A DNA stretch of 64,000 nucleotides from Podarcis liolepis (taxonomy: Eukaryota): the NCBI GenBank assembly GCA_965112155.1, contig OZ218101.1. The stretch is one strand, 5' to 3'. Positions 2,102-12,210 of the stretch are shown in pieces. Below the pieces are notes generated by a model. That model worked only from the letters and a program-made list of their open reading frames with translations. It made no database searches and was not told the DNA's origin. Within the stretch, counting starts at the first letter, position 1. Each line of letters opens with the position of its first letter. Position numbers and translations under genes: made by a program.

Positions 2102-5100
2102 TTAGTTATCAAGCTTAATTGTATCAATCACACGAACAACCATTGGTTTAATAGACAAAGGTACTAGTTCTTCACTGTAGCTTTCTGCTATGTATTTTTC
2201 CAAGGCTAGTGATCTAGCTTTCTGACTTATTGCATCAGCCCCGAGCTTTTGAGATTCCCCACTTCCTTGTTCTGATAGCACATTTGCTGACAGAGTTTGG
2301 TACTTGCCAGGAGGACTACGCTGTGGTTTTCTCTGTTCTGCGGGACACGTCTTGTTCGGTGAGCCCAATTTGGGACCAGTATCAGTCTCACATAGTGTTT
2401 TGTTCTTTTGCATGGTCCTATCGTGACTTGACAGTGGAGCCAAGGAACCCTTCCTTTCACTAGAGTTCTTTTCATGCACTCCCAGTTCATCTGAGGCAGG
2501 AAGACGATACTTCTCAGATTTATGATGCGTATGCTTTCCATCTCTTATACTAGATTTAGGTTTGACATAATCCTTTGGTGGTTGTGGTTGCTGCTGCTGT
2601 TTCCCTGCTGTGGCGCTATATTGATGGCTCTCCTGTTTCACATCTGATAAGGGTAGCTGCTGGTTCTTAGAATTCCATGAAGCCTGTTTTTCATTCTTAG
2701 CAATATCCTCGTGGTTTCTAGAGTCATTCAAGGATGGTTTCTGCGGCTCCCCTGCTGCAAGATTTACTGGCTCAGTCTTTGATTCATTTGGTGCTGGTAT
2801 CTGATGTTCCTTATGGTTGCGCAAAGTACCTCTCTCCCTTACAGTAGTCTCTTTGCTCTTTGGAAGTCCATTTCTAGAGTCACCTAAAGATGGTTTCTGT
2901 GACTTCTCTGCTGCAGGTTTCATTGGCTCAGCCTTTTTATTCTTTGGAACTTCATTTTCCAAAGGTAACTGGTTTTGCCCAGAATTACTAGTGTTCTCTT
3001 TTGTTTTCCCCAATTTGCTTACAGTAGTCTCTTTACTCTTTGGAAGTTCATTTCTGGAGTCATCTAAAGATGGTTTCTGTGACTTCTCTGCTCCAGGTTT
3101 CATTGGCTCAGCCTTTTTATTCTTTGGAAGTTCATTTTCCAAAGGTAACTGGTTTTGCCCAGAATTACTAGTGTTCTCTTTTGTCTTCCCCGATTTGCTT
3201 TCAGGTTTCACTTTCTTGCCAGATAATGGTATTTTGTCACTCTTAGTCTTAAGGCTATCCTGGGCATTTCTTTGGTTAGCATTATCATCACATTTCACTG
3301 GTTCTTTGAGTGTGGAGAGCTGGTGTTTTGCAGCGTTTTCATCTTTTGATGCAACAGTTCCACCTTTTTCTGGATCTCTTGATGGTGTTTGACATTTTGA
3401 GTTATCTGGGGAATGTAACACTCCCGGCCTGCTAGGTTTATGCTTTGGTGGGGTCAGCTGCTGTGCACCTGCTCTTTCACCAGCACCCTCTGCAAGGTCA
3501 CTTTTTATTAATTTCTGGGGCATATTGGAGTTACGCACCAACTTCTTACCTCCCACTATAGAGTTTTTCTCTTCTGTTACCTTGTCATCTTGCCCCTTTC
3601 TATCAGCAGATGATGGAATTAGACATTGTACTTCTTTCAGTAGATTTCTTTCTCCTCCTTCACTGTTCCCCTGCTTTACTGTTTCATTTGGGGAGGGAAA
3701 TCCGCTTTTCTCAGGCTTTACTTCTGCCATCACTTTCATGCTTTCCTGCTTCCCAGTGTTGTTTCCTAAGGGCACCTGCTGCTTCTCCACATTGTGCGCG
3801 GGGCTTGCCTCCCCTACAGGACTAATTTCACGCTTTCTAGTCTCCTTTGTTGAGGCTGGTTGATACTTCCTGGTCTGGGGACTCATACCCTCAACTTCTA
3901 CAGCATGGTTTTCACTCTTAATTAAATCATTGCACAAATTGCTTGTTGTTGGCTTGCTGTCTTGCCCAGGTGCCCCCTTGGGCTTCAGCAATTCAGCTGG
4001 AGAAGGGAAGTGGTGTTTCTCAGAATTAGGACTGGCTGCATTATCTCTTACAATACAGCTCTCTTTCTTTTTCACTGCATTTGATGTTGGGGTTTGGAGG
4101 TTTCTGACACTGCACGAAGGTCTGTCGACTTCTGGAGTATCACCTTCTGGATTTGCTGAGTGGGTCAGTGAGGATGAGTGAGATTTTTGAGAAGGAGGTG
4201 CAGGATTCTTTTCCAGATTGCCAGTTTCGTGGCTGACGAATTCTTCCGACAGCCTCTGAGAGGTATCCAAATGGCTCAAGCTACTCTTTCCCTTTTTGCT
4301 CTTGTTTTCAGAATTTGTCTTTTCATTATCTGAGCGCAGTTCAGCTTTGCTAGTATTCCCTGCTGCTCTAACGCAGCTGGATTTATCTAAATCACCAGTC
4401 AAAGGGCAAAGCTCTTTTTCAAAATCATTTCCTTTTAAATCATTGTTGTCTTTCTGGCTCCTATTTGAAGTAGGAGTTTGGTGTGGTTGATCTATAGTCT
4501 GTTTTGATATGTTTGAGCTAGGGTTATTTTGTTGGCTCAGCTTTGGATGCGATTGTGGCTCCTTGGGCAAATGCTCCCTTTCTGCCTGTTGATCAGATGG
4601 CTCACCTTGGCTTCTCGATGGCTGTAGCACTCCCTTTTTTGCTTTATCTGCATGGTCGCTTTTGTTAAGGCTAGGAAATAGTTCCTCCTTATCAGGCAGC
4701 TTTTCTTTGTTCTGAACCGTGTCAGAAAACGTGCTCCCCAAACTTTGTGCGTTATCTTGACATGGCTTAAGCGGAGGCATTTTGTGAACAGCTGCAGGTT
4801 CAACACTTGATTGCTGGTCCTTTATTGGAGGCTCTCTGTTACAAGATGCCTGAGCTACAGGAGAGAGAAATGGTGGAATATTTTCCAACACTTTCTTTTC
4901 AGAGAAACATTTTTGGCTGGTGAATGGGGGATCTTTTATAGGCTCTGCTAATTCTATTTCTGTCTCCTTTGGCTTGAACATGCCTTCTGGTATGCCAGGA
5001 ATCCCGTCCCCTTTCATTTCCTGGTGACTATGTACATGAACTCCTTCAGCTGGATTAGAAGAGAGGTCCTTAGTAGGTATGTTTTCTCTGCTCATGATTT

Positions 5101-6344
5101 TTGCTGCATTTTTGTCTCTGGACCTGGAAAAGGTATCATCCACAGGCGGTATGGTGTTCTCTTTGTGATCTAAGCTGTCCTTAGATAAAGGAGGTATGCA
5201 ATCAACAAGGGACACATTTTCACGTGAAGGAAGAACACTGTCTTGATTAGAACCTGGGCTTGTAGGAGTTACATTACTCTTGACAATGTCCTTTTTGTCA
5301 GCCACCACCTTAGGCATTTCATGATGCTTGTTTTGCAACTGTCCTCCTAGTTGCCCTTTATGTGCCATGCTTTCTGGTATCCTGTTGTCATGAGACCCAA
5401 TGCCACGTGCTTTCTGGGTGTCTTTTGGTCTCCCCACTTCAGAAGGCTGAGTGGCGGACTTGGCATTTGTAGCCCAACTCCAAGGGTGACTAATTTCAGT
5501 AGCAACACAGAATTTAGGTGTAGGGATAGTTGTGCATACCAGCTGTTGAGGCTGAGGGCTATTGACAATTGTGGTTGTCCTCAGTTTCCTTTCAAGCACT
5601 CTTATTTCAGGTTTGCAAATCTTTTTTCTCTCTGGGCCCTTTTTGCTCTTTCTCTCGCCTTTGCACGGCAGCAAAGATTTCACCTCAATGGCTGAACAGA
5701 TATTACTGCTTTGTTCAAACTTTTCTTTCAGTTTGGACAAGACAGAGTTTTTGTTGATGATCTTGGGCAGGTTATCGTTTGGTGTCTTCTTTTTTGGAGC
5801 CACCTGCTTTTCTCTTTCTTTAGCTTCTTTTTCCTCAGCAACTAAGAATTTCTTCAGGATATTCTTCACAGTATTTTTCCCGGTTGAGCAGACCCATTTG
5901 ACTTTATCGTGGGGTGTTATCTCTGGGCTTTCTCCTTCCTTTGAGGAGCTTTTGTCCAGCTTGCTTACAATGGAGTTTAGCCCGTTTCTGTTCTGCTTTT
6001 CTTTAACGACCAGCTTGCCAACCTCTCTCGACCTTTTCCTGTAGGCCTCGCGGTTGTTGTTCATGAACCTCGATTGCAGAAGCTGGAATTTGGTGGGACG
6101 AATGCCGCCATGTGCGCTATGGCATTCGCGCCTCGAGTTCACCTTGTTCTCTATCCCTTCGAGCCACTTGGCCTTCTTGCTCTCGACCTGGGGTCGGCTG
6201 GATAGGAGGTCTGTGAGGTAAAGTAGAAGGCTGCTGAGGACAGCAAATGCACCTAGTTCTGTGGACATCTTACTGAGCTTCTTCTTCAGCACTATGGGGT
6301 CAACCAGCACCTTATCACTGCCCAGCTTTGTACCTTTACTTCTG
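2102..6344 (-). CDS. ADPRHL1: ADPRHL1 giant exon 8 (long isoform C-terminal extension, ~1414 aa, largely low complexity)
   Basis: Uninterrupted 1402-aa ORF (2102..6310) stays open up to a polypyrimidine tract + CAGCAG acceptor at 6347-6342. The phase-2 donor in exon 7 (GAA AA|GTAAAG) joins in frame, giving ...SSEEN-RSKGTKLGSDKVLVDP...; total 5304 nt = 1767 aa + stop. Confidence 0.85.
2838..3200 (-). repeat. In-frame 180-bp (60-aa) tandem duplication inside ADPRHL1 exon 8
   Basis: 2838-3020 vs 3018-3200 align without gaps, 8 mismatches counted by eye. Confidence 0.95.
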
Positions 6345-12052: not shown

Positions 12053-12210
12053 TTACTTTTCCTCTGAAGACAGTCGGAAGAGAGCCTCTCCCAAGTTTTC
12101 TAGCTTCTCCCTCTGTTCAAGATCCTGGTACAAGCCTTTAGGGACCTTGTTGAGCCCATAAAGTAAGCCATACAAACAGCCAGCAATAGTTCCAGTTGCT
12201 GCACTCTCAC
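12053..12210 (-). CDS. ADPRHL1: ADPRHL1 exon 7 (terminal coding exon of the 354-aa short isoform; internal donor after 12057 for the long isoform)
   Basis: ttacAG|GT; encodes [55 protein letters not shown] at 12055-12053. Exon sum from ATG 34694 is 1065 nt = 354 aa + stop. Confidence 0.95.

What the first reader, a model, noticed from the sequence alone, without database searches (positions are those of the whole stretch)
2102..12060. Stop codon doubling as a splice donor switches ADPRHL1 between a 354-aa pseudoenzyme and a ~1767-aa giant isoform
Seen: exon 7 ends GAG GAA AAG TAA AG on the minus strand. The G of Lys and the T of the stop form a donor (AA|GTAAAG, phase 2). 5.7 kb away, a polypyrimidine tract + CAG at 6347-6345 opens a 4.24-kb exon that is in frame (AA+C = Asn) and stop-free for ~1413 codons, which is not plausible by chance in AT-rich DNA. 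Known: ADPRHL1/ARH2 is a heart-enriched inactive ARH1 paralog needed for myofibril assembly in Xenopus. I recall a long C-terminally extended isoform being annotated in mammals but little studied. Inference: competition between this donor and polyadenylation in intron 7 is a binary switch adding a large scaffold to the pseudoenzyme.
Basis: partly seen in the sequence, partly recalled or inferred. Interest (0 to 1): 0.72.

Follow-up and report, generated by a model that had tools for sequence, protein, structure and literature searches.

The report
Long ADPRHL1 isoform with actin-type motifs
In this lizard heart-muscle gene a working splice site hides inside the stop codon and is predicted to add a 1,400-residue, mostly floppy tail; that long form is already annotated from fish to primates, but the tail carries three conserved short motifs that likely grip actin filaments, a link not found in the papers searched.

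Summary
Exon 7 of ADPRHL1 ends AAG TAA with a GT donor at 12056, and a CAG at 6347-6345 opens a 1413-codon in-frame exon (354 aa versus 1767 aa). The long form is not new: it is a predicted RefSeq/Ensembl isoform from trout to primates, and Smith 2020 mentions exon 8. The mechanism is an ordinary composite terminal exon. It is not binary: one relative's RNA contig splices this donor to a third, repeat-derived exon 12.9 kb away, and lacertid annotations use both CAGs of a tandem acceptor. The 12057-6344 junction itself was not seen in the six runs laid. What I add: the extension is mostly disordered and fast-evolving, but its first 270 residues are under strong constraint. They hold three helical 9-mers that fit the short F-actin-binding motif (VxxLxxxFE), kept from trout to apes and absent from the published 103-protein list. 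Likely function: tethering the pseudoenzyme to actin filaments (about 55%). Binding is untested.

The parts
34481..34694 (-). ADPRHL1 exon 1, coding part (second of two adjacent ATGs)
   Evidence: GT donor; matches N-terminus of P0003
29794..29958 (-). exon 2
   Evidence: AG/GT ends
23120..23245 (-). exon 3
19574..19714 (-). exon 4
   Evidence: exon 4-5 join seen as a loose end in X1
16572..16699 (-). exon 5
   Evidence: joint 13923/16572 in X1, X5, X24
13791..13923 (-). exon 6
   Evidence: joint to exon 7 in X1, X5, X23
12053..12210 (-). exon 7 coding part, composite terminal exon ending Lys354-stop
12051..12059 (-). weak 5' splice site AAA|GTAAAG overlapping the Lys codon and stop; 6 of 9 consensus matches against 7-8 for the six other donors
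   Evidence: used in run X5
10982..12052 (-). 3' UTR of the 354-aa form; AATAAA at 11542 and 10987; cleavage site not mapped
   Evidence: contigs cross the donor unspliced in X1, X6, X7 and reach 11109 in X1 and X7
6342..6362 (-). polypyrimidine tract and tandem CAG-CAG acceptor of exon 8
   Evidence: both products annotated in Podarcis muralis and Zootoca vivipara
2102..6344 (-). exon 8 coding part, 4243 nt
6197..6301 (-). conserved block A, predicted helical hairpin (aa 369-403), function unassigned
6062..6088 (-). SFM-like 9-mer B (aa 440-448; F at P1, L at P4, F at P8)
5843..5869 (-). SFM-like 9-mer C (aa 513-521; V, I, F)
5714..5740 (-). SFM-like 9-mer D (aa 556-564; L, L, F, E), closest to the consensus
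4811..4975 (-). second conserved island (about aa 811-865), tetrapods
2838..3204 (-). in-frame 180-bp (60-aa) tandem repeat, 2 copies
2105..2197 (-). conserved C-terminal motif KYx[AV][EQK]S[YF]...FKP...DT
   Evidence: 114 of 120 homologues; a variant of it also ends the trout and frog proteins
1204..2101 (-). 3' UTR of the long form (AATAAA at 1862, 1819); end not mapped
   Evidence: X1 contig 1204-2867

Best explanation
ADPRHL1 exon 7 is a composite terminal exon whose stop codon contains a working but weak splice donor; when the donor is joined to exon 8 (annotated, junction not observed here) the enzymatically dead ARH2 domain is predicted to gain a 1413-residue, mostly disordered tail that likely binds actin filaments through three tandem short helical motifs. 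Shown: the sequence layout, use of the donor in one relative's RNA, unspliced read-through into the short 3' UTR in three other runs, and conservation of the frame and motifs. Inferred: competition with intronic polyadenylation sets the ratio; the short 40-kDa form dominates in heart and the long form is minor or belongs to other tissues; motifs B, C and D dock in actin's hydrophobic cleft as Lifeact-type helices do, three in a row giving avidity, so the long form would anchor the pseudoenzyme on filaments, with block A, the middle island and the C-terminal motif binding other partners. I put the long isoform being real at about 0.9 and actin binding, given that, at about 0.6.
For: Donor is functional: an X5 contig carrying exons 5-7 leaves the genome at exactly 12057, and its next 30 letters match one place in the 1.57-Gb genome, just after a pyrimidine-TAG acceptor 12,920 nt downstream. 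Exon 8 is translated through an upstream exon in lizards: D369 and LKKK 373-376 are kept in 116-120 of 123 homologues yet lie before exon 8's first Met (380). The junction residue is Asn in 57 of 63 fused homologues scored. Cetacean short forms end in EEK (7 of 8 printed) and cetacean long forms read EEN. Both tandem-acceptor products are annotated in two lacertids; by my knowledge of NCBI's pipeline such one-residue variants come from transcript alignments. Constraint: 1 of 68 differences to P0002 falls in the first 273 of 1413 residues, P=8e-6. Motifs: P1/P4/P8 pattern in 123 of 123 (B), 123 of 123 (C) and 117 of 123 (D) homologues, and all three in brook trout and Mantella frog. AlphaFold2 gives isolated helices on each motif (10-residue pLDDT 71-86) between disordered linkers, pTM 0.21. 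The SFM consensus VxxLxxxFE and tandem copies in neurabin, PLEKHG3 and XIRP1 are from PMC13364712. ADPRHL1 acts on actin filament assembly near Z-discs (PMC4990356 abstract).
Against: The 12057-6344 junction was not seen: no loose end at the donor in X1, X6 or X7, X5 goes elsewhere, and X1's exon-8 contig runs unbroken through the acceptor into the intron (which showed only 15 of 50 joints). All long-isoform records listed were predicted models, none curated. Exon 8 showed little expression in tadpole heart, and the Z-disc localisation was obtained with the 40-kDa form, which lacks the motifs (PMC7390403, PMC4990356). Only motif D has Glu at P9; B has Phe at P1 and B and C have hydrophobic P9, rare in the published table. 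The pattern is common in amphipathic helices and I relaxed it after seeing the sequence, so its shuffle p of about 0.005 is optimistic. The homologues were found with this same region and are rich in birds. ADPRHL1 is not among the 103 SFM genes, which may mean it was filtered out rather than never scanned.
Confidence: 0.55

Rival explanations
1. The long isoform is real, but the conserved helices bind something other than F-actin (the ARH2 domain itself, a myosin or cortex protein, or each other).
For: Conservation extends well beyond the 9-mers: block A, REVG[KR]L after motif B, the AEEKE run after motif C, the middle island and the C-terminal motif. Motifs B and C depart from the consensus at P9. 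Block A was the most confident part of the trout model (pLDDT 77-78).
Against: Three motifs with the same P1/P4/P8 spacing in 125 residues, with P1 and P8 invariant in B and C, is the layout of known multi-SFM proteins.
Confidence: 0.27
2. Exon 8 works mainly as a stand-alone transcript from an intronic promoter, translated from an internal Met; the fusion to ARH2 is a minor by-product.
For: Many genomes annotate exon 8 as a separate gene or as an ARH-less isoform. A Met stands just before block A in 42 of 63 fused homologues. No junction was seen here, and X1's contig crosses the acceptor unspliced.
Against: That Met is missing in 21 of 63, including this lizard, where block A is still conserved upstream of the first Met. 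The acceptor phase matches the donor across taxa. A 100-kDa band was seen in tadpole gut; the paper's antibody is raised to an exon 5-6 peptide (PMC7390403 sections 2.6 and 3.1, band stated, not shown in what I read).
Confidence: 0.13
3. Exon 8 is a non-functional open frame and the long form is an annotation artefact.
For: No direct junction read here; only predicted records; the mouse exon-8 transcript had low support in 2020 (PMC7390403, S16 legend).
Against: 1413 open codons (log10 P -36), open from trout to apes with the same terminal motif, and uneven constraint.
Confidence: 0.03

Closest known systems
ADPRHL1/ARH2 long isoform with predicted exon 8 (RefSeq XP_053240314.1 Podarcis raffonei, 1768 aa; Smith et al. 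2020, PMC7390403)
   Same: Same gene, junction and C-terminus; the 1768-aa record has one extra N-terminal Met. The paper notes that the 5' part of exon 8 is conserved between Xenopus and mammals.
   Different: No function or motif is assigned in the passages read. The third, repeat-derived exon is not among the lacertid protein records seen.
SFM proteins (Lifeact/ITPKA-type short F-actin-binding motif; neurabin-1, PLEKHG3, SPECC1L, CEFIP; PMC13364712)
   Same: 9-residue helices with hydrophobic P1 and P4 and Phe at P8, in disordered sequence, conserved, in tandem.
   Different: ADPRHL1 is not in the list; two of three motifs lack an acidic or polar P9; binding is untested; the motifs are confined to one splice isoform.
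Composite terminal exon / intronic polyadenylation (PMC4227790 passages; FLT1 and CstF-77 papers seen in the search listing)
   Same: A weak 5' splice site in an exon that can run on into an intronic poly(A) site.
   Different: Here the short form is the well-studied product and gains only a stop codon from the intron; the spliced form is five times longer.

Membership tests
ADPRHL1/ARH2 pseudoenzyme | ADP-ribosylglycohydrolase domain PF03747 | tested here: met
   E 4e-42 on P0002; the window's exons 1-7 match the N-terminus of P0003
ADPRHL1/ARH2 pseudoenzyme | Loss of ARH1 metal-binding motifs SDDT and DSDS | tested here: met
   Window has SDNT and GESA at the corresponding places; ARH1 motifs from PMC9738213 section 5; correspondence by position, not by structure
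ADPRHL1/ARH2 pseudoenzyme | No hydrolase activity in vitro | not testable with these tools
   Stated for ARH2 in PMC9738213
Composite terminal exon (splicing versus intronic polyadenylation) | Functional 5' splice site inside the terminal exon | tested here: met
   X5 contig spliced at 12057 to a unique GT-AG partner
Composite terminal exon (splicing versus intronic polyadenylation) | Transcripts that read through the donor into the intron | tested here: met
   X1, X6, X7 contigs cross 12057 unspliced
Composite terminal exon (splicing versus intronic polyadenylation) | Mapped intronic cleavage and polyadenylation site | tested here: inconclusive
   AATAAA at 11542 and 10987; contigs cannot show ends
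Composite terminal exon (splicing versus intronic polyadenylation) | Spliced junction to exon 8 | tested here: inconclusive
   Not seen in 6 runs; annotated in four lacertid species
[quoted passage not shown] | Hydrophobic P1 and P4, aromatic P8 | tested here: met
   123/123, 123/123, 117/123
[quoted passage not shown] | Glu-like P9 | tested here: inconclusive
   Met for D (E in 122 of 123), not met for B and C; the published table includes a Leu at P9 in SVIL
[quoted passage not shown] | Helix within disordered sequence | tested here: met
   AlphaFold2 helices 85-94, 158-180, 201-213 with low-confidence linkers; IUPred and ANCHOR not run
[quoted passage not shown] | Predicted complex with actin, ipTM at least 0.6, Lifeact-like pose | not tested
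[quoted passage not shown] | P1/P8-dependent F-actin binding in cells or in vitro | not testable with these tools
   Bench test

The most novel reading that the evidence does not exclude
Since the bony-vertebrate ancestor, ADPRHL1 has made two kinds of protein from one stop-codon splice site: a free pseudoenzyme and an overlooked triple-SFM F-actin-binding protein. The long form would be the direct physical link between ARH2 and actin, and knockouts in exons 1-6 would have removed it along with the 40-kDa form.
Probability: 0.5. Interest if true: 0.62.

Novelty: new member of a known kind. Interest (0 to 1): 0.42.

Why it matters
How a dead ADP-ribosylhydrolase affects myofibril assembly and cell adhesion is open (PMC4990356, PMC7390403, PMC10601310), and 40-kDa transgenes rescued the frog knockdown only in part (PMC7390403). 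Three defined 9-residue motifs in a conserved, unstudied isoform give a cheap, direct test of an ARH2-actin link. They also matter for reading variants in exon 8, which is often mis-annotated as a separate 'collagen-like' or 'uncharacterized' gene. The splice arrangement itself is ordinary.

Tried and rejected
RNA search: no RNA holder listed on record; X1, X5, X6, X7 are guessed RNA, though X1 and X5 join exons across GT-AG introns and X6 and X7 leave exon 7 at its acceptor. Raw-read runs X23 and X24 (about 12% read) had under 1x depth on exon 8, too low to test the junction. Contig depths in X1 (exon 6 about 2100, short UTR 1340-1670, exon 8 104-167, intron 7 contigs 21-60) were not used as evidence, as the tool says contig depth cannot rank parts of a gene. 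Complex prediction of actin with aa 504-576 could not be run; no verdict. The full-length trout model was too poor to read (mean pLDDT 41), so docking of block A or the C-terminal motif on the ARH domain is untested; no fold search was run on either model. Pfam found nothing above cut-off in exon 8; PDB sequence search gave 0 hits at E 10. ESM Atlas hits (CRACD-like, Xin-repeat protein 2, KIAA1210; all 0.76) are below the level shuffled proteins often reach and were not counted. Search of 1.84 billion representatives gave 41 hits; the 10 looked up were vertebrate ARH2 models or unnamed/mis-named vertebrate proteins, and no other gene family emerged. dN/dS was not computed, as no orthologous DNA was held. 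A curated human long isoform of 1967 aa is recalled only: the '1967' hits shown in three papers were page numbers or years, and it was not in the cluster rows listed (15 of 29 shown). Earlier findings: two look-ups, none.

Full report
Observation. Seven exons on the minus strand (34694-12053), all with AG/GT ends, give a 354-aa protein ending in Lys. The last codons are GAA AAG TAA and the GT at 12056-12055 straddles the Lys codon and the stop. Joined to the CAG ending at 6345, AA+C gives Asn and the frame stays open to 2102, giving 1767 aa; the next CAG gives 1766 aa. Base shuffles of exon 8 never exceeded 207 open codons in 500 trials. The donor matches 6 of 9 consensus positions, the other six donors 7-8. 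The sequence is from a lacertid-type lizard: the closest named proteins are Podarcis.

Is the donor used? I laid six runs on the locus. In one search, three of four runs (X1, X6, X7) cross the donor unspliced into the short 3' UTR. In the fourth (X5), a 1219-nt contig carrying exons 5, 6 and 7 leaves the genome at exactly 12057. Its next 30 letters match one place in the genome, G000:C4:28581107-28581136, 864 bases before the window's first base and directly after a pyrimidine run and TAG. So the GT works as a donor over a 12,920-nt intron that skips exon 8. The new exon lies in a roughly 135-bp repeat with related copies at window 30114-30234 and two more in the 60 kb downstream. It is flanked by a 7-of-8 direct repeat, which by my recall is typical of hAT-type elements, and would give 376 aa. 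This is one contig in one run. The exon 7-8 junction was not seen: one search listed only 15 of 50 joints, X1's exon-8 contig (3171-6661) runs through the acceptor, the raw-read runs were under 1x, and contigs drop rare forms. This is neither confirmation nor refutation.

Is the long form real and known? A search with the first 260 exon-8 residues gave 173 proteins (120 listed) from lizards, snakes, turtles, an alligator, birds, marsupials, monotremes, placentals, caecilians and a salamander; many are fused to PF03747 and named ARH2 isoforms, many are stand-alone models. The representative search added a frog and brook trout with the same fusion. Podarcis raffonei X1 is this isoform plus one Met; P. 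muralis and Zootoca vivipara have X1/X2 pairs that differ exactly as the two CAGs predict. The junction residue is Asn in 57 of 63 fused homologues (2 more could not be anchored). All long records listed are predicted models. Smith 2020 (PMC7390403; passages, sections 2.6 and 3.1 in part, supporting legends part 1 and S16 passage) reports the predicted exon 8, its conserved 5' part, little expression in tadpole heart and a 100-kDa species in gut. So the isoform is already known, and the mechanism is a composite terminal exon (PMC4227790, passages).

What is in the tail? It is rich in Lys, Ser, Pro and Glu, varies from 829 to 1800 residues after the first anchor, and has no Pfam or PDB match. 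Identity to mammals is 27-54% per 50 residues up to aa 654 and falls to 10% or less beyond aa 955. Against P0002, 1 of 68 substitutions lies in the first 273 residues (P=8e-6). Conserved islands are block A (a predicted hairpin), three 9-mers, a middle island near aa 811-865 and a C-terminal motif present in 114 of 120. Part of block A lies upstream of exon 8's first Met in this lizard yet is kept in 116-120 of 123 homologues, which needs translation through an upstream exon; a Met does precede it in 42 of 63 fused homologues, which keeps the stand-alone rival alive.

The three 9-mers (aa 440, 513, 556) fit the short F-actin-binding motif VxxLxxxFE defined from Lifeact and ITPKA (PMC13364712; abstract, sections on structure, validation, affinity, final iteration and pipeline, and supplementary file 2 parts 1-2). 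A relaxed pattern holds in 123, 123 and 117 of 123 homologues (2 of 125 lacked the anchor and were left out), occurs 3 times in the first 230 residues against 0.38 in shuffles (p 0.005, pattern chosen after the fact), and is present in trout and frog. AlphaFold2 models each as an isolated helix. Only the third has Glu at P9. ADPRHL1 is absent from the paper's table (0 hits in 4 supplementary files, one scanned PDF unreadable). Searches for ADPRHL1 with '1967', 'isoform', 'F-actin/long isoform/exon 8/ARH2', 'phosphoproteom', and ADPRHL1 since 2021 (listings only, top 12-30 rows) showed no paper on the long form's function; subscription journals and bioRxiv supplements are not covered. A predicted complex with actin could not be obtained, so binding rests on motif pattern, conservation and predicted helicity alone.

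Verdict. The feature is real; the isoform and the splice mechanism are known. The useful new lead is a likely triple actin-filament-binding module in the unstudied isoform, about 55% likely and directly testable. Other papers seen: PMC4990356 (abstract, passages), PMC9738213 (passages), PMC10601310 (passages).

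Noticed in passing
L001 9020-9153 (G000:C4 about 28581020-28581153), outside the window: A short repeat element supplies a splice acceptor used by the stop-codon donor in run X5, predicting a 376-aa ARH2 with 23 new C-terminal residues. A gray whale record (P0274, 359 aa) also has a short alternative tail after EEK.
   Followed up: yes
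window 6347-6342: Tandem CAG-CAG acceptor; both products are annotated in two lacertids.
   Followed up: yes
window 2838-3204: 60-aa in-frame repeat; Podarcis lilfordi has one extra 58-residue stretch and P. muralis records are 60-62 residues longer, so copy number seems to vary.
   Followed up: partly
window 51454-51783 (-) and 58242-58817 (+): Exons of neighbouring genes either side of a GC-rich stretch at about 53000-56000; the first has a UBA-like domain. Names DCUN1D2 and TMCO3 are recalled from human synteny. A cobra record (P0026) fuses the first gene to ADPRHL1.
   Followed up: partly
window 34697-34692: Two adjacent ATGs; several lacertid records start at the first, giving 355/1768 aa.
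   Followed up: partly
L007 1492-2622 and L008 1492-2622: Two single-exon, intact actin genes about 10 kb apart on contig C9, 93-94% identical to cytoplasmic actin, with a third actin-like match nearby (L009).
   Followed up: no
window 16089-16445 and 19236-19560: Copies of an abundant, heavily transcribed short repeat in introns; the first dominated the read depth.
   Followed up: no
P0267/P0269 (brook trout): A fourth motif-like stretch follows motif D in the trout protein, seen by eye; it lacks Phe at P8.
   Followed up: no
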